From: Alphaproteobacteria bacterium
Lineage (GTDB): Bacteria; Pseudomonadota; Alphaproteobacteria; JBKEAR01
DNA: 64,000 nucleotides
Assembly: GCA_047972425.1 (NCBI GenBank)
Contig: JBKEAR010000016.1
Location: 5,500 to 69,499 of the forward strand
Direction: 5' to 3'
The notes below the pieces were generated by a model. That model was not told the origin of the DNA, searched no databases, and saw nothing but the letters and a program-made list of their open reading frames with translations. The translations under genes were made by a program, and so were the position numbers. Below, in pieces: positions 22,444 through 55,815 of the stretch. Numbering within the stretch: the stretch's first letter is position 1; each line of letters starts with the position of its first letter.

Positions 22444-22520
22444 CCGTCATTCCTGATTTAATCAAGGAATCTGATGGCTCAAGCCTTGTATTCAGACTCC
22501 TGCTTACGCAGGAGTGACGG
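22444..22520. repeat. CGTC-type REP doublet
   Basis: CCGTCA-TTCCTG..GGAATC ... GACTCCTGC-TTAC-GCAGGAG-TGACGG; ends are inverted. Confidence 0.75.
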
Positions 22521-22545
22521 CTAAAATTTATTGCATAAACCTTAC

Positions 22546-22834
22546 AGAATAAAGCATAGGGAAAGCGTCATGTTGTAAACATGCTTTCAGCATGACGAGG
22601 AAACCGTCCCCTAGTAACTTAAAATATTAAAGAATAGAGCATAGAAAAGCCGAATAGGCTTTCCCTGCCTTGTCGGAGACAAGCCAATTATAGAGTTGGC
22701 ATGCAAAGCATGACAGGTCAACGCTTGTGTTGCGGGGTGTCTTGTCGGAGACAAGCCATTATAAATAGGCATGCTTTCAGCATGACGGGCAGAGCCCCAT
22801 ACATAAAGGGAAACCGTCCCCTAGTAACTTAAAA
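22546..22834. repeat. BIME-like mosaic of palindromic repeats
   Basis: CATGCTTTCAGCATGACG at 22580 and 22770; GGAAACCGTCCCCTAGTAACTTAAAA at 22599 and 22809; CTTGTCGGAGACAAGCCA at 22669 and 22741. Confidence 0.85.
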
Positions 22835-22901
22835 AAATACGCTACCAAAATATCATAAAAGATATTTCAATAGCGCACTTAAATTCAGCAACACGAAGTG
22901 T

Positions 22902-30281: not shown

Positions 30282-31373
30282 CTATTCTATATTCTTTTTT
30301 AGCTTGGATATGCGCTGATAGGACTGATTAATGCGTTCTTCGCTGAGTTCGCCCCGATTAATCGCATCAAGCACCGCTTTGCGGGCGGCGCGGGCATTAT
30401 CGGCATCGGGGTCTTTAGCGGCGGCTATTAAGGTGATATCTGCACCCGCTTTAATCGCTTGCACAATGCGCTCATCAAAATTGTAATATTTATCAATGGC
30501 ACCCATCATTAAATCATCGGTAATCACCACCCCATTATAACCCAACTGATTACGCAATACACCGGTGATGACCTCGGGCGCAAGGGTGGAAGGCATAGGG
30601 CTCCATTTTTGATTGACCACATGGGCAGTCATCACAACATCAACCTTATTTTTTGCCATTAAGCTTTTATAAGGCTCTAACTCTTTGGCTTGCCAAGTGT
30701 CCGTTACATCAACAAAGCCCTCATGGGTATCGCCTTTTGCGCTGCCATGGCCGGGGAAATGTTTAATGCTGGTTATCACTTTGCATGGTTGATGGGCATC
30801 AATAAAAATCTCGGCCCATTTAACCACCTTATTCGGGTGTTGAGAGAATGAGCGCCCCCATTTACCAATAGCTGGTGAATCAGGTACTAAATTGAGGTCA
30901 ACCACAGGGGCTAAATTGAAGTTAATACCGTAATCTTTCAGCTCGCATGCCATATTCTTCCATGTTTGATAAGCGGCTTGGGTATCATCAGCCTGCATCA
31001 TATCAAAGGGGCGCGGATATTCGCCAAAGCCATTTTTATGGTTTAGCCTTGCCACAGCACCGCCCTCTTGATCCACCGAAAATAAAACGGGCTCGCCTGT
31101 TATTTGCTCACCCTGTTTAGCAGCTGCCAATAATGGCTTCATTAAGCTTTTAAGCTGTGCGGGGCTTTTAACATTAGAGCCACTAATAATCACACCGCCC
31201 AATTTGCCCGATTGTAAATCTTGGGTAAGCTCGCCAATTTGCATATCATTCGGGTCATCGGCATAAAAGGCAACCATAATCATTTGCCCGATTTTTTGCT
31301 CTAAATCAATAGCAAAGGCCGATACCGAAATAGTGAATGCCGCTGCGGTGATAATTGTTTTTACTATTTTCAT
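30282..31373 (-). CDS. nagZ: GH3 beta-N-acetylhexosaminidase (periplasmic)
   Basis: SVDQEGGAVAR, APVVDL, KHFPGHG, DTH, ITDDLMMGAI; signal peptide. Confidence 0.88.
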   Translation of the reverse strand: MKIVKTIITAAAFTISVSAFAIDLEQKIGQMIMVAFYADDPNDMQIGELTQDLQSGKLGGVIISGSNVKSPAQLKSLMKPLLAAAKQGEQITGEPVLFSVDQEGGAVARLNHKNGFGEYPRPFDMMQADDTQAAYQTWKNMACELKDYGINFNLAPVVDLNLVPDSPAIGKWGRSFSQHPNKVVKWAEIFIDAHQPCKVITSIKHFPGHGSAKGDTHEGFVDVTDTWQAKELEPYKSLMAKNKVDVVMTAHVVNQKWSPMPSTLAPEVITGVLRNQLGYNGVVITDDLMMGAIDKYYNFDERIVQAIKAGADITLIAAAKDPDADNARAARKAVLDAINRGELSEERINQSYQRISKLKKNIE

Positions 31374-31501
31374 GGGTCTTCCTATCCAAAATATTTATTT
31401 ATCATTTATTCATAACCGAATTTTATTAAATGACTCTTAATAAAGAATTTCTGCTGATAAATTAATTGTAAATCATGGGCAAATTATGGTTAGGCGTGTC
31501 T

Positions 31502-31706
31502 ATAGTCTATACATAATAAAATGATTATATAGACATCAGTAATAATTTGATGTTAAGGGGTTTGCAACCCGTAAAGCCGAAGGCTTTCTAAAAAAAGATA
31601 ACTTGTCTCCGACAAGATATAATCCCCGCACACAGCTACGCTGTGGGCAACCTCAAAGCATTAGGTAATACTAAAATTTATTATCATTTTAAGTAGTATT
31701 ACCTAT
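31502..31706. mobile_element. 205-bp non-autonomous MITE-like element, copy 1
   Basis: 203/205 identical to 34547-34751 with unrelated flanks; imperfect terminal IRs; no coding capacity. Confidence 0.88.
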
Positions 31707-31881
31707 ATTATAAAAATTTTCAGACAATCTCGATTTTTATTTTAAAGTTTATATATTAAAATAATCGAATATTTATCTTTACACAAAACCACGCCAATGT
31801 TATGGTTTATATGAAGAAATATTTGTAATCAATAATGAAAAAAAAAATTGTAAGGATTGATTAATTAACACGGAGGCAAAT

Positions 31882-33453
31882 ATGCTTAACTCATTAGGGA
31901 AAAGAGTTATATTTTTGTTTTCTGCTGTCTCAATATTTTTATCGGCCGAGGCGGCTAATGTGGATAATATTATCCCTGCCCCCCATGACCATAGCGGTTA
32001 TGAAGAATTAAAAGGGCCGTTTACTACAGCTTTTGAGGTAACCGAGGCTTGTTTATCTTGCCACGAAAATACAGCAGATGAAATTCATGCAACCAGCCAT
32101 TGGCAATGGAAGAGCCTAGAGAATGAAAATTTGGGCAAATATTCACGTTCGCTCAATAATTTTTGTATTGCCACACCGGGCAGCGAGGCCTTTTGTACCT
32201 CTTGCCATATTGGTTATGGTTGGAAAGACCCCAATTTTGACTTTAGTAGCAATAACGCCATAGATTGTTTGGTTTGCCACGATACAACAGGCCTATATAC
32301 CAAACAAGATGCCGGCATGCCCAAATTGTTAGATAAACCCGATGGCAGCCCAACCTTTTTAGATGATATTGCCTTAAATGTTGGCACGCCGGGGCGTGAT
32401 AACTGTGGTGGCGCATGCCATTTTAAAGGCGGTGGCGGCGATGGCGTAAAACATGGCGATCTCGATAGCTCGCTCACCAATCCTCCGCGCGAATTAGATG
32501 TGCATATGGCGGCCGATGGTGCCAATTTTGCTTGCCAAGAATGCCATACCACCCGCGAGCATCAGGTAGCTGGGCGCTCTTATACCACCCCTGCTTTCGA
32601 TGAATTTAAAAGCTTGGTGGATGACCATAATATGAGCAAACTGCCTTGTACGTCTTGCCATAGCGATACCCCCCATAAAGACAAGCTTGCCGCAAAACTA
32701 AACGACCATACCGATACCGTTGCTTGCCAAACATGCCATATACCCGCATTGGCACGGGGCGGATTACCCACCAAAGTTTCATGGGATTGGTCTACAGCTG
32801 GCAAGCTTAAAGATGGCAAACCCTATGAAGATAAAAATGAAGAAGGAAAAACCATTTATGCCAGTAAAAAAGGCGATTTTATTTGGGAACATAATGTAGC
32901 ACCCGTTTATTTTTGGTATAATGGTGCCATGAGCTATATTACCATTGATGATAAAATTGATGATAGCCAACGTGTTACCATTAACCATCCCCTTGGCGAT
33001 GTAAACGACCCAAGGGCGCGGATTATGCCGTTTAAACGCCATATAGGCAAACAGCCTTACGATACGGTGAATATGACCATGTTACAGCCCGATGTTGCCG
33101 GAAACGGCACGGAAGAAGCCGATGCCGCCGCCTTTTGGAAGCATTTTAACTGGGCAAATTCTTTAGCTGTTGGTACAAAAATACGTGGGCAAGAATTTAG
33201 CGGGGAATTTGATTTTATTGACACCGAGTTCTTTTACCCCAGTACCCATATGGTTGCCCCCAAAGAAGATGCACTTAAATGTGCCGAGTGCCATAACGCC
33301 AATGGCCGCCTAAAAGATGTTGCGGGCGTATATATGCCCGCGCAAAAACATTTTGAGTGGATAGAAATTCTTGGTTGGCTCATGGTAGGCTTTACAACTT
33401 TAGTATCGATTATTCATTTGGTACTACGCATCATCAACAGAAGGAGAGGCTAA
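31882..33453 (+). CDS. octaheme c-type cytochrome, tetrathionate reductase (OTR) family
   Basis: 7 CxxCH plus one CxxxCH; NNFC, GGGGDGVKHGDLDSSL, DVHM motifs; signal peptide and C-terminal TM. Confidence 0.9.
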   Translation: MLNSLGKRVIFLFSAVSIFLSAEAANVDNIIPAPHDHSGYEELKGPFTTAFEVTEACLSCHENTADEIHATSHWQWKSLENENLGKYSRSLNNFCIATPGSEAFCTSCHIGYGWKDPNFDFSSNNAIDCLVCHDTTGLYTKQDAGMPKLLDKPDGSPTFLDDIALNVGTPGRDNCGGACHFKGGGGDGVKHGDLDSSLTNPPRELDVHMAADGANFACQECHTTREHQVAGRSYTTPAFDEFKSLVDDHNMSKLPCTSCHSDTPHKDKLAAKLNDHTDTVACQTCHIPALARGGLPTKVSWDWSTAGKLKDGKPYEDKNEEGKTIYASKKGDFIWEHNVAPVYFWYNGAMSYITIDDKIDDSQRVTINHPLGDVNDPRARIMPFKRHIGKQPYDTVNMTMLQPDVAGNGTEEADAAAFWKHFNWANSLAVGTKIRGQEFSGEFDFIDTEFFYPSTHMVAPKEDALKCAECHNANGRLKDVAGVYMPAQKHFEWIEILGWLMVGFTTLVSIIHLVLRIINRRRG

Positions 33454-33454
33454 A

Positions 33455-34042
33455 ATGACAGAACGGACTTATGTGTTTACACGTTTTGAGCGCCTATGGC
33501 ATTGGTCTCAGGCTGCGATTATATGTATGCTTTTACTTTCGGGCTTTGCTATCCATGGTAGTTTGGGCGGGTTCATTGATTTTTCTACCGCTCACCGCAT
33601 GCATATGGTATTTTTATGGTTATGGTTAGGCTCTTATGTATTTTTGCTGTTTTGGTTACTTGTTACGGGTGAGATTAAACAATATAAACCCACAACCGAA
33701 AATGTAACCAATTTGTTTAGCTATTATTCATCGGGGATATTTAAAAAAGAGCCCCACCCCCACCAAGTACGCCGGGATAAAAAACTGAATGCTTTACAAA
33801 TTATCTCTTACGATATGGTATTGTTTATTTTAGCCCCCATACAAATAATATCGGGCTTATGTTACCTTTATTATAATCAATTTGGCCTCAGCCACGCAAG
33901 TTTGGGTATCATTGCGGCTATCCATACTTTGGGTGCATTTTCCTTTTTGGCTTTTTTGGTTATCCATATTTATTTAGCCACTACAGGGCCTAAGCCTTCC
34001 AGCTATTTTAAAGCCATGTTTACCGGATATAACGAGCATTAA
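33455..34042 (+). CDS. cytochrome b/b6-domain membrane partner of OTR
   Basis: FERLWHWSQA, HRMH, NALQ, HTLGAFSFLAFLVIHIY heme-b histidines. Confidence 0.88.
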   Translation: MTERTYVFTRFERLWHWSQAAIICMLLLSGFAIHGSLGGFIDFSTAHRMHMVFLWLWLGSYVFLLFWLLVTGEIKQYKPTTENVTNLFSYYSSGIFKKEPHPHQVRRDKKLNALQIISYDMVLFILAPIQIISGLCYLYYNQFGLSHASLGIIAAIHTLGAFSFLAFLVIHIYLATTGPKPSSYFKAMFTGYNEH

Positions 34043-34111
34043 ATATTGTTGAAGATAAACGAATAATAAAATAATGTCCTTTGCGAAAGGGAATATGACG
34101 ATATATGATTT

Positions 34112-34126
34112 GTTCACTTTTTGTTC
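34112..34126 (+). promoter_or_regulatory. alphaproteobacterial LexA (SOS) box
   Basis: GTTC-ACTTTTT-GTTC (GTTC-N7-GTTC) abutting a -35 element. Confidence 0.7.
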
Positions 34127-34155
34127 TTTACAAAATATATTTTTTATGGTATGGT
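34127..34155 (+). promoter_or_regulatory. sigma70-type promoter upstream of DUF559 cassette
   Basis: TTTACA-N17-TATGGT. Confidence 0.6.
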
Positions 34156-34231
34156 TTTAACAGAATAAAAAAGTGTGATACGGATTTTTTGGGGATAAGA
34201 AAATAATAGAATAATATCCTCTTTTTAGAAG

Positions 34232-34310
34232 GTTTTGTCGGAGACAAATGAATAATAAAATCGTCCCCTCTTTAGAGGGGAGTCAGGCTTTAGCCTGACG
34301 GGGTGTGTTT
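34232..34310 (+). repeat. left 79-bp inverted repeat of DUF559 cassette
   Basis: 73/79 identical to reverse complement of 34918-34996; three internal hairpins. Confidence 0.92.
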
Positions 34311-34336
34311 AATCGTTTAATAAGGTATATTTTAAA

Positions 34337-34934
34337 ATGACAAATAGAACAATGCCCAAACAGGCTATTATCCGCTATCATCCTGATTTAAATTAAAAAG
34401 CCAGATACTTACGGTCGCATAGCACAAAAGCGGAAGTTATTTTATGGCAGCATCTAAAAAATAAAAAATTACTTGGTTATCAGCTTAAAAGACAAAAACC
34501 TTTATTATCTTATATTGTCGATTTCTATTGTGCCGAACTCAGGCTCATAGTCTATACATAATAAAATGATTATATAAACATCAGTAATAATTTGATGCTA
34601 AGGGGTTTGCAACCCGTAAAGCCGAAGGCTTTCTAAAAAAAGATAACTTGTCTCCGACAAGATATAATCCCCGCACACAGCTACGCTGTGGGCAACCTCA
34701 AAGCATTAGGTAATACTAAAATTTATTATCATTTTAAGTAGTATTACCTATATTATTGAGCTTGACGGTTATTCTCATGATAATGAAAAATCACAATCTT
34801 ATGATCATGACAGAACTAAAGAATTAGAAAATTATGGTTTACATATCGTGCGGTTTACCAATGAAGACATTTATCATAATATAGAGGCTGTACTTGCATC
34901 AATTGAGACATATAAAAAAACACACCCCATCTAG
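34337..34934 (+). pseudogene. DUF559 (Vsr-like) endonuclease, interrupted
   Basis: Removing the 205-bp insert gives ...ARYLRSHSTKAEVILWQHLKNKKLLGYQLKRQKPLLSYIVDFYCAELRL|IIELDGYSHDNEKSQSYDHDRTKELENYGLHIVRFTNEDI...; also in-frame TAA at 34394-34396. Confidence 0.9.
34547..34751. mobile_element. 205-bp MITE-like element, copy 2 (inside DUF559 gene)
   Basis: Direct repeat of 31502-31706; clean removal restores the reading frame. Confidence 0.9.
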
Positions 34935-34996
34935 CTAAAGCTAGACTCCCCTCTAAAGAGGGGACTATTTTATTATTCATTTGTCTCCGACAAAAC
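34918..34996 (-). repeat. right 79-bp inverted repeat of DUF559 cassette
   Basis: Reverse complement of 34232-34310; overlaps the DUF559 stop codon. Confidence 0.92.
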
Positions 34997-55302: not shown

Positions 55303-55815
55303 ATGAATTTTAAAACGATTTTAGCAACAACAGCAATTCTTGCTACAACCGCAACTTTATCTGCATGTAAAGAAGAAGCCAAAGAAGCCGTTCAAGATAC
55401 ACAAGCTGCTGTAACAGAAACAACTGAAGCCGTAACCGATGCTGCTACAGAAGCCGCTGAAGCAACAACAGAAGCTGTTGAAGCCACTGCTGATGCCGCA
55501 ACAGATATGGCAACTGATGCCGTTGATGCAACAAAAGATGCTGCTGAAGCCACTGCTGATGCCGCAACAGATATGGCAACTGATGCCGTTGATGCAACAA
55601 AAGATGCTGCTGAAGCCACTGCTGATGCCGCTACTGACGTAGCAACTGATGCTGTAGACGCAACTAAAGATGCTGCTGAGGCGACTGCCGATGCGACAAC
55701 AAATGTTGTTACAGATGCCGTAGACGCAACTAAAGATGCTGCTAACGCCACTGCTGATGAAGTTGGCAAAGCTGCCGATGCCATTAACAATGCTGTTGAT
55801 GCCATCAAAAATTAA
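55303..55815 (+). CDS. Ala/Thr/Asp-rich repeat lipoprotein
   Basis: Lipobox LSAC; four 22-aa repeats. Confidence 0.8.
   Translation: MNFKTILATTAILATTATLSACKEEAKEAVQDTQAAVTETTEAVTDAATEAAEATTEAVEATADAATDMATDAVDATKDAAEATADAATDMATDAVDATKDAAEATADAATDVATDAVDATKDAAEATADATTNVVTDAVDATKDAANATADEVGKAADAINNAVDAIKN
55483..55746 (+). repeat. 66-bp coding tandem repeat x4
   Basis: 55483-55548 and 55549-55614 identical; two further diverged units. Confidence 0.9.

What the first reader, a model, noticed from the sequence alone, without database searches (positions are those of the whole stretch)
31502..31706. Recently active 205-bp MITE built from stacked hairpins, with ambiguous target duplication
Seen: two copies 203/205 identical with unrelated flanks. 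Ends form imperfect IRs (about 21/29 over the terminal region), and each end also folds on itself (GTCTATA/TATAGAC; AGGTAATACTA/TAGTATTACCT). The core holds four triloop hairpins: GGGTT-TGC-AACCC, AAAGCC-GAA-GGCTTT, CTTGTC-TCC-GACAAG, CACAGC-TAC-GCTGTG. Both copies sit immediately 5' of ATTAT. Junctions fit either no duplication (ATAG...CTAT, HUH-like) or a TA duplication around TAG...CTA (IS630-like, needing one T>C change at 34546). I cannot assign the mobilising enzyme.
Basis: partly seen in the sequence, partly recalled or inferred. Interest (0 to 1): 0.65.

Follow-up and report, generated by a model that had tools for sequence, protein, structure and literature searches.

The report
Ordinary TA-flanked bacterial MITE, two copies
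This is a real small non-coding jumping element (a MITE) in an uncultured alphaproteobacterium; its TA-flanked inverted-repeat ends fit the commonest bacterial MITE type, so it is a new family of a known kind, not a new mechanism.

Summary
Two copies (31502-31706 and 34547-34751) are 203/205 identical and have unrelated flanks. They carry 29-nt imperfect terminal inverted repeats (21/29) and a core of short hairpins; folding z is -5.5 as RNA and -6.5 as DNA.

New evidence:
- Two relatives about 90% identical in DNA have an empty site at copy 1. Removing exactly 205 nt restores it without a gap, leaving a single TA.
- Removing 205 nt from copy 2 restores a full-length DUF559 reading frame.
- About 95%-identical copies occur in gut, wastewater and estuary metagenomes with other flanks. 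T precedes ATAG at 5 of 6 loci and A follows CTAT at 6 of 6. The ATTAT context is not conserved.
- Other contigs share only one end, so there are sister families or a parent element.

Best reading: a 203-bp element TAG...CTA that duplicates a TA target and is moved in trans by an IS630/Tc1-mariner-like DDE transposase. The HUH (IS200/IS605) reading is disfavoured because the ends are inverted repeats and no 4-5-nt target is conserved. No autonomous partner was found in the window, about 8.5 kb beyond it, or the public collections. The enzyme is therefore inferred, not shown.

It is a new member of a known kind, of low to moderate interest. A more intriguing side observation is the hairpin-bracketed DUF559 cassette that copy 2 interrupts.

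The parts
31503..31705 (+). MITE copy 1, element proper under the TA-duplication reading (TAG...CTA, 203 bp). It lies in the divergent intergenic region between a GH3 glycosidase gene (30282-31373, minus strand) and a multihaem cytochrome gene (31882-33453, plus strand).
   Evidence: Empty site in L006 and L008. Gene families.
31501..31502 (.). Left TA flank of copy 1, the presumed duplicated target.
   Evidence: The empty sites in L006 and L008 hold one TA (TCT|ATTAT and TTT|ATTAT).
31706..31707 (.). Right TA flank of copy 1, the presumed duplicated target.
31501..31529 (+). Left terminal inverted repeat, including the TA.
   Evidence: 29 nt, 72% complementary to 31679-31707.
31679..31707 (-). 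Right terminal inverted repeat, including the TA.
31662..31705 (+). Right-end hairpin. An internal copy of the terminal 12-mer (TAGGTAATACTA) pairs 12/12 with the terminus (TAGTATTACCTA). It may be a second transposase-binding site in inverted orientation.
31533..31645 (+). Core of five short hairpins (31533-53, 31558-70, 31573-87, 31602-16, 31631-45). The 31571-31618 block, holding hairpins 31573-87 and 31602-16, is missing from a variant in run X3. It resembles a two-hairpin module at 22740-22789.
34548..34750 (+). MITE copy 2 (TAG...CTA). It is inserted inside a DUF559 pseudogene between codons Leu (CTC) and Ile (ATT).
34546..34547 (.). Left flank of copy 2: CA, where TA is expected. It is the single exception among six left junctions.
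34751..34752 (.). Right TA flank of copy 2.
34337..34546 (+). N-terminal part of the interrupted DUF559 gene. It also carries an in-frame TAA at 34394-34396.
34752..34934 (+). C-terminal part of the interrupted DUF559 gene.

Best explanation
The element is a non-autonomous cut-and-paste transposon (MITE). The mobile unit is the 203-bp sequence TAG...CTA, bounded by imperfect inverted repeats of about 27-29 nt. It inserts into a TA dinucleotide and duplicates it, for a net gain of 205 bp.

It encodes nothing, so it must be moved in trans. The most likely enzyme is an IS630/Tc1-mariner-type DDE transposase encoded by a parent element with the same ends elsewhere in this or a related genome. The terminal 12-mer occurs again internally in inverted orientation and forms the right-end hairpin; this may be an additional binding site.

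The core is assembled from short G+C-rich hairpin modules that also occur elsewhere in this genome. These modules are probably passengers or stabilisers, not part of the transposition chemistry.

Both window insertions arose after this lineage split from relatives about 90% identical. Copy 1 landed in a divergent promoter region. Copy 2 landed in an already decaying DUF559 gene.

What is shown: the copies, the ends, the empty sites, the net 205 bp, the TA flanks, and the existence of sister elements sharing one end. What is inferred: that the TA is duplicated rather than merely split, and the family of the transposase.
For: - Identity and ends: two copies 203/205 identical with unrelated flanks; inverted repeats 21/29.
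- Empty site at copy 1: relatives L006 and L008 are about 90% identical in the flanking genes. Window minus 205 nt aligns to them without a gap across the junction. It scores better than minus 202, 203 or 207. The empty site holds one TA.
- Copy 2: joining the two DUF559 halves after removing 205 nt gives the canonical C-x5-[IVA]-I-E-[LV]-DG spacing seen in 12 homologues. The joined protein matches PF04480 in one stretch, E = 1.2e-34.
- Independent loci in eight metagenome runs carry copies about 95% identical. The base before ATAG is T at 5 of 6 loci, and the base after CTAT is A at 6 of 6. No further flank positions are conserved.
- In one wastewater copy, the single TA to the right of CCTA is followed by TAGTCT, like the MITE's left end; it may be a second element.
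- Size variant: one copy lacks 31571-31618, like the size classes of Correia elements described in PMC2229807.
- Contigs sharing only the left ~33 nt or only the right ~35 nt, with other interiors, point to a family with common ends.
- Literature: IS630/Tc1-mariner elements insert almost exclusively into TA and duplicate it. For ISY100 in vitro, 34 of 39 insertions were canonical and 5 of 39 aberrant (PMC2170065). Most bacterial MITEs have 4-30-bp inverted repeats with TA at the termini and fold stably (PMC5896051, PMC2229807).
Against: - No autonomous element was found. No other match to either end occurs in the window.
- No transposase-family Pfam hit was found for the genes checked: those called on contigs overlapping the window and about 8.5 kb beyond its right end, plus the remaining window ORFs of at least 120 aa that were scanned.
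- There were 0 hits for the core 22-mer or for a degenerate end pattern in the genome and metagenome collections, and 0 hits for the end pattern in the viral collection.
- Nothing useful was found in plasmids.
- Copy 2 has CA, not TA, on the left.
- A TA duplication and a duplication-free insertion between T and A give identical sequences, so the sequence data cannot prove that a duplication occurs.
- Other bacterial TA-flanked MITEs, such as Correia, have never been tied to a transposase, so 'IS630-like' may be wrong even if 'TA-duplicating' is right.
Confidence: 0.7

Rival explanations
1. It is a TA-duplicating MITE, but it is moved by a transposase outside the IS630/Tc1-mariner family. Candidates are an IS5-family subgroup with 2-bp duplications, or an unknown enzyme as for the orphan Correia elements.
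For: The evidence for TA flanks and inverted-repeat ends is the same as for the best explanation. No IS630-like partner was found anywhere. The outermost bases TATAG...CTATA are those I recall for Correia ends; this is from memory and was not tested.
Against: IS630/Tc1-mariner is the family for which strict TA targeting with a 2-bp duplication is the rule (PMC2170065). From my knowledge of ISfinder descriptions, IS5-family ends usually start GG or GA; these ends do not.
Confidence: 0.15
2. It inserts without target duplication. The element would be ATAG...CTAT (205 bp), placed between T and A, or C and A for copy 2. The enzyme would be a single-strand HUH/Y1 transposase of IS200/IS605 type, or another non-DDE recombinase, that recognises the end hairpins.
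For: Copy 2 is flanked by C...A, which fits this model with no extra mutation. The right end carries a strong 12-bp hairpin, and the whole element is hairpin-rich. Filled and empty sites are equally compatible with this parse.
Against: The ends are inverted repeats (21/29), which IS200/IS605 elements lack. No 4-5-nt target is conserved on either side across 6 loci: the right flanks are ATTAT, ATTAT, AAATT, ATGTT, ATAGT and AAATA, and the left flanks are GTCT, GCTC, ATCT, CAAT and GGTT. The conservation is two-sided (T on the left, A on the right), not one-sided. The left-end hairpin is intact only in copy 1. No Y1_Tnp gene was found in the sequence examined (and the gene tables).
Confidence: 0.07
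3. The element belongs to a lineage-specific hairpin-repeat system. In this view the hairpin modules shared by the MITE core, the cluster at 22.5-22.8 kb and the arms around DUF559 are spread by the DUF559-type nuclease, in the way REPs are spread by RAYTs.
For: The 13-mer TTGTC-GGA-GACAA occurs 6 times in 64 kb, in all three contexts. The DUF559 gene is bracketed by 79-nt inverted arms made of hairpins. The inner part of that layout (CCCCTCT hairpin, variable hairpin, GGGGTGTGTT) brackets a 63%-identical homologue in another organism.
Against: The MITE's termini do not resemble the DUF559 arms. The shared 13-mer is internal to the MITE, and a MITE variant lacks it. The only DUF559 gene seen here is a pseudogene and is itself a victim of the MITE. 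No nuclease of this family is known to me to transpose DNA.
Confidence: 0.04
4. It is not mobile: a duplicated structured non-coding RNA gene or regulatory module.
For: The element folds strongly. One terminator-like hairpin lies on the minus strand.
Against: There is no Rfam match, even at E up to 10. One copy sits inside and destroys a coding sequence. Relatives have precise empty sites. Copies with many different flanks occur in other metagenomes. No RNA run holds it, which is weak evidence.
Confidence: 0.02

Closest known systems
RUP (repeat unit of pneumococcus), the MITE attributed to IS630-Spn1
   Same: It is small and non-coding, with stop codons in all frames. It has inverted-repeat ends and inserts at TA. 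Its copies are highly similar, which has been read as recent spread. It often lands in other selfish genes (PMC2229807), as copy 2 does here in a DUF559 gene.
   Different: RUP is 107 bp, and its ends match a resident IS630-family element. Here the element is 203 bp, no parent IS is known, and the core is a stack of short hairpins rather than one long stem.
Correia / NEMIS elements of Neisseria
   Same: They have TA at both termini and a TA duplication, with inverted repeats of about 24 bp. Size classes differ by an internal block of about 50 bp; here a variant lacks 48 nt. No transposase is known for them. They insert near promoters (PMC2229807).
   Different: There is no demonstrated sequence homology; only the outermost TATAG is alike, and that is from memory. 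The host phylum differs. Correia transcripts form one long end-to-end stem, whereas here the predicted fold is mainly local hairpins.
IS630/ISY100 and Tc1-mariner transposons (the presumed parent type)
   Same: TA target with a 2-bp duplication, terminal inverted repeats of 20-30 bp, and occasional non-canonical flanks (PMC2170065).
   Different: Those elements encode their own DDE transposase. No such gene with these ends was found here.
IS200/IS605-derived palindrome-associated elements (PATEs) and REP/REPIN-RAYT systems
   Same: They are hairpin-rich and insert without a duplication. For REPs, the palindromes flank the gene of the mobilising enzyme, a layout echoed by the DUF559 cassette next door.
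   Different: They lack terminal inverted repeats and need a fixed 4-5-nt target on one side. Neither condition holds here.

Membership tests
Bacterial MITE (generic) | Small (about 100-400 bp) and non-coding | tested here: met
Bacterial MITE (generic) | Terminal inverted repeats | tested here: met
   29 nt, 21/29 complementary.
Bacterial MITE (generic) | Multiple copies with unrelated flanks, and empty sites in relatives | tested here: met
   There are two copies in the window. At least four further loci occur in metagenome runs. Relatives L006, L008 and L005 have empty sites.
IS630/Tc1-mariner-derived MITE | Insertion at TA with a 2-bp TA duplication | tested here: met
   TA is on the left at 5 of 6 loci and on the right at 6 of 6. 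The empty site holds a single TA, and the net gain is 205 = 203 + 2. Caveat: the parse T|ATAG...CTAT|A without a duplication gives the same sequences, and copy 2 has CA on the left.
IS630/Tc1-mariner-derived MITE | Ends match those of a resident or catalogued IS630-family element | tested here: inconclusive
   No further match to either end occurs in the window. There were 0 hits for the end pattern in the genome, metagenome and viral collections.
IS630/Tc1-mariner-derived MITE | A DDE transposase of that family is present in the host | not testable with these tools
   Only about 72 kb of the genome could be read, and none of the genes checked in it had a transposase-family Pfam hit.
IS200/IS605-type PATE (HUH/Y1) | No terminal inverted repeats; different left and right ends | tested here: not met
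   The ends are inverted repeats, 21/29.
IS200/IS605-type PATE (HUH/Y1) | A fixed 4-5-nt target abutting one end, with no duplication | tested here: not met
   ATTAT follows only the two window copies. Other loci have AAATT, ATGTT, ATAGT and AAATA. Left flanks are also variable apart from T at -1.
IS200/IS605-type PATE (HUH/Y1) | Conserved subterminal hairpins at both ends | tested here: inconclusive
   The right-end hairpin is strong (12 bp). In several metagenome copies it carries a T>C change at 31672 with no compensating change reported. The left-end stem is perfect only in copy 1, and the other copies have A at 31532.
Correia/NEMIS | Sequence homology to the Neisseria consensus | not tested
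The resemblance is limited to TATAG...CTATA as I recall it.
Rickettsia palindromic elements (RPE) | In-frame insertion that keeps the host ORF open | tested here: not met
   Reading into copy 2 gives ...LRL-IVYT-stop, and all frames of the element carry stop codons.
Known structured RNA family (Rfam) | Match to a covariance model | tested here: not met
   There were 0 matches at gathering score over the window. Only chance-level hits appeared at E up to 10.

The most novel reading that the evidence does not exclude
The short hairpin modules may be an independent, lineage-specific mobile or recombining layer, linked to the DUF559 (Vsr-fold) nuclease gene. The modules include TTGTC-GGA-GACAA and AAAGCC-GAA-GGCTTT. 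They are shared by the MITE core, the cluster at 22.5-22.8 kb and the inverted arms bracketing DUF559. The inner part of those hairpin arms is conserved around a 63%-identical homologue in another organism. On this reading the system would be a REP/RAYT-like pairing built on a PD-(D/E)xK nuclease. The MITE would be a TA-transposon that has picked up these modules and then hit the nuclease gene itself.
Probability: 0.1. Interest if true: 0.7.

Novelty: new member of a known kind. Interest (0 to 1): 0.3.

Why it matters
For this finding itself the value is modest.
- It adds a new MITE family, with defined ends, target and empty sites, in an uncultured low-G+C alphaproteobacterial lineage that is seen in gut, wastewater and estuary metagenomes.
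- It breaks short-read assemblies of that organism, because contigs stop inside it.
- It can serve as a strain marker.
- Two direct copies 3 kb apart bracket a multihaem cytochrome / cytochrome b operon. That operon could therefore be lost by recombination between the copies.

If the parent transposase turns out not to be IS630-like, the element would join Correia elements as a TA-flanked orphan, and that would be more interesting. The neighbouring DUF559 cassette, with hairpin arms conserved in part across organisms, deserves its own look.

Tried and rejected
- **Collection scans.** Exact scans of the genome-representative and JGI metagenome collections with a conserved core 22-mer, and of those two plus the viral collection with a degenerate pattern covering both ends, all gave 0 hits.
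- **Plasmids.** A blastn against plasmids gave only a chance 27-nt hit.
- **RNA families.** Rfam gave nothing at gathering score or at permissive thresholds.
- **RNA runs.** None is listed for the element.
- **An uninterrupted DUF559 allele, to settle CTC versus CTT at the target.** The closest intact homologues are only 63% identical. Near-identical strains carry the same insertion. More distant relatives lack the whole cassette.
- **Extending the contig.** About 8.5 kb beyond the right end holds no further copy and no transposase. On the left, the fetched contigs begin inside the window and add nothing.
- **Alternative duplications.** A 3-bp ATA duplication (net +203) and a duplication-free 207-bp or 202-bp element were rejected. 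Only minus-205 aligns to the empty sites without a gap, and only it restores the canonical DUF559 spacing.
- **Composite transposon (MITE-operon-MITE).** Rejected as the origin of the cytochrome operon, because relatives have the operon at the same place without MITEs.
- **Promoter scan.** No excess of promoter-like sites was found in or around copy 1.

Full report
**1. The observation**

The window holds two direct copies of a 205-nt sequence, at 31502-31706 and 34547-34751.
- They differ at two positions: 31532 (G/A) and 31553 (T/C).
- The similarity stops abruptly on the left. On the right it runs 5 nt further (ATTAT).
- The ends are imperfect inverted repeats: 31501-31529 against 31679-31707, 29 nt, 72% complementary.
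- The right terminus pairs 12/12 with an internal copy of itself (31662-31673 / 31694-31705).
- The whole element folds much better than shuffled controls: RNA -53.3 kcal/mol, z -5.5; DNA z -6.5; 0 of 200 shuffles as good.

Two details need correction.
- The left-end self-fold is perfect only in copy 1. Copy 2 and every metagenome copy that covers 31532 carry A there.
- The ATTAT context is not general (see section 4).

**2. Host and context**

Protein neighbours place the window in an uncultured alphaproteobacterium.
- The best named ArgJ hit is 77% identical, from an 'Alphaproteobacteria bacterium' MAG. Rhodospirillales follow at about 57%.
- G+C content is about 40%.

Copy 1 lies between two divergently transcribed genes: a GH3 glycosidase and a multihaem cytochrome c.

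Copy 2 lies inside a DUF559 (PF04480) gene.
- The two halves are 34337-34546 and 34752-34934. Joined, they read ...DFYCAELRL|IIELDG....
- The joined protein matches the Pfam model in a single stretch, E = 1.2e-34.
- Twelve homologues all show the same C-x5-[IVA]-I-E-[LV]-D-G spacing, with no gap at the junction.
- The insertion is therefore exactly 205 nt net.
- The gene also has an in-frame TAA at 34394-34396, so it was or has become a pseudogene.

**3. Empty sites**

Public Logan contigs from related strains could be fetched through neighbouring proteins.
- L006 and L008 are about 90% identical to the window in the flanking genes. L005 is about 82% identical. All three have the GH3-cytochrome intergenic region without the element.
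- Window minus 205 nt reads GGTTAGGCGTGTCT|ATTATAAAAATTTT.
- L006 reads GGTTAGAAATTTCTATTATAAAAAATTTT. L008 reads GGTTAGGCAGTTTTATTATAAAAATTTT.
- The spacing between the conserved anchors is identical in all three. The minus-205 reconstruction scores better than minus-202, -203 or -207.
- The empty site contains a single TA at the insertion point.
- Strains 99.8-99.9% identical to the window (L001, L003, L004, L009) carry both insertions. Their contigs break 25-30 nt inside the element, as expected for a repeat.

**4. More copies**

Words from the element occur in eight public metagenome runs (gut, wastewater, estuary). The laid contigs are about 95% identical to the window copies and run into different flanks.

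| Junction | Sequences at independent loci | Conserved base |
|---|---|---|
| Left, before ATAG | GTCT, GCTC, ATCT, CAAT, GGTT, ...T | T at -1 in 5 of 6 |
| Right, after CTAT | ATTAT, ATTAT, AAATT, ATGTT, ATAGT, AAATA | A at +1 in 6 of 6 |

- With T or A at about 32% each, the chance values are roughly 0.015 for the left and 0.001 for the right (my arithmetic).
- Nothing further out is conserved.
- The consensus junction is therefore TA|TAG...CTA|TA.
- In one wastewater copy, the single TA to the right of CCTA is followed by TAGTCT, like the MITE's left end; it may be a second element.
- One variant lacks 31571-31618, i.e. two of the hairpins.
- Other contigs share only the left ~33 nt or only the right ~35 nt and then continue with unrelated interiors. 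These are sister families or the parent element. Only 30 nt of their interiors can be seen with these tools.

**5. Mechanism**

- The parses TA|TAG...CTA|TA (2-bp duplication) and T|ATAG...CTAT|A (no duplication) yield identical filled and empty sequences.
- What tips the balance is the combination of inverted-repeat ends, two-sided T...A conservation, and the absence of any one-sided 4-5-nt target.
- This is the signature of TA-duplicating DDE transposons of the IS630/Tc1-mariner group. For these, TA targeting and duplication are shown biochemically. Aberrant flanks occur in about 10% of events (ISY100: 34 of 39 canonical; PMC2170065).
- It also fits the textbook description of bacterial MITEs: 4-30-bp inverted repeats with TA at the termini, 100-400 bp, and stable stem-loops (PMC5896051, PMC2229807).
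- The CA flank of copy 2 is then a T>C change after insertion or a non-canonical event.
- One hint, not a test: contig L009 stops exactly one base before that C. Other contigs run 25-30 nt into the element. A T/C branch in the population would produce this.
- IS200/IS605-type (HUH) mobilisation is disfavoured. Those elements lack inverted-repeat ends and need a fixed target on one side. Neither condition holds here.

**6. What was not found**

- No parent element. There are no other matches to either end in the window.
- No transposase or RAYT Pfam domain was found in the genes checked: those called on contigs overlapping the window and about 8.5 kb beyond it, plus the remaining window ORFs of at least 120 aa that were scanned.
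- There were 0 hits for the core in the genome and metagenome collections, and 0 hits for the ends in the genome, metagenome and viral collections.
- Nothing was found in plasmids, Rfam or RNA runs.
- The enzyme assignment is therefore an inference from the target and the architecture of the ends.

**7. The hairpin core**

- The 13-mer TTGTC-GGA-GACAA occurs six times in 64 kb: twice in a hairpin cluster at 22.6-22.8 kb, once in each MITE copy, and at the outer end of each arm flanking DUF559.
- MITE positions 31568-31617 are 70% complementary to 22740-22789 and have the same two-hairpin layout.
- A natural variant lacks almost exactly that block.
- The core therefore looks modular, assembled from lineage-specific hairpin units. 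I treat these as passengers.

**8. Verdict**

This is a real, relatively young MITE of the common TA-flanked type. It is a new family in an uncultured lineage, and its transposase is unidentified.
- Novelty: a new member of a known kind.
- Interest: low to moderate (0.3).
- The most novel reading still open, at about 10%, links the hairpin modules and the DUF559 cassette into a REP/RAYT-like system.

Noticed in passing
window 34232-34996 (arms 34232-34310 and 34918-34996); L002 4590-5478: The DUF559 (Vsr-fold nuclease) pseudogene is bracketed by 79-nt inverted arms, 92% complementary and made of hairpins. The arm layout is TTGTC-GGA-GACAA, GAATAATAAAAT, a CCCCTCT-N4-AGAGGGG hairpin, a variable hairpin, then GGGGTGTGTT. 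The two versions of the variable hairpin differ by compensatory changes. The inner part of that layout (CCCCTCT hairpin, variable hairpin, GGGGTGTGTT) brackets a 63%-identical homologue in another organism (L002), which also has a gene-less mini copy upstream. The whole cassette of about 900 nt is absent from relatives L005 and L010. It looks like a mobile unit, resembling a RAYT gene flanked by REPs. A text search found no paper that describes this.
   Followed up: partly
window 22490-22840: This intergenic cluster of short G+C-rich hairpins includes CATGCT-TTC-AGCATG, AAAGCC-GAATA-GGCTTT and CTTGTC-GGA-GACAAG. A two-hairpin unit is duplicated at 72-nt spacing. A 31-nt direct repeat (22599-22629 / 22809-22839, 94%) brackets a block of about 210 nt. 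The cluster shares modules with the MITE core.
   Followed up: partly
window 31502-34751: The two MITE copies lie in direct orientation, 3045 bp apart. They bracket the multihaem cytochrome c and cytochrome b561 genes and half of the DUF559 cassette. Recombination between the copies would delete the operon. Relatives have the operon without MITEs, so it was not brought in as a composite transposon.
   Followed up: partly
run X3, relative to window 31571-31618: A MITE size variant in a wastewater metagenome lacks 48 nt (two hairpins) and has CTTA in their place. This is reminiscent of the short and long Correia classes.
   Followed up: no
window 34545/34546; locus L009 end: Logan contig L009 ends exactly one base before the non-canonical C of the CA flank of copy 2. 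It does not run into the repeat as other contigs do. This may reflect a T/C polymorphism in that population.
   Followed up: no
window 55318-55759: Five tandem copies of a 66-nt unit (61-84% identical) lie inside an ORF with no Pfam match (55303-55815). This is a 22-residue protein repeat. Contig L013 begins inside the array (window 55650).
   Followed up: no
window 34394-34396: The DUF559 gene carries an in-frame TAA upstream of the MITE insertion, so the gene is doubly inactivated.
   Followed up: yes
window 34046-34269: A 35-nt module (short hairpin, GAATAATAAAAT, short hairpin) occurs three times between the cytochrome b stop codon and the DUF559 cassette. It occurs once more, inverted, at 34959-34993. 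The GAATAATAAAAT core of one such unit is present at this position in relative L005, so the cassette arms may include duplicated local terminator sequence.
   Followed up: no
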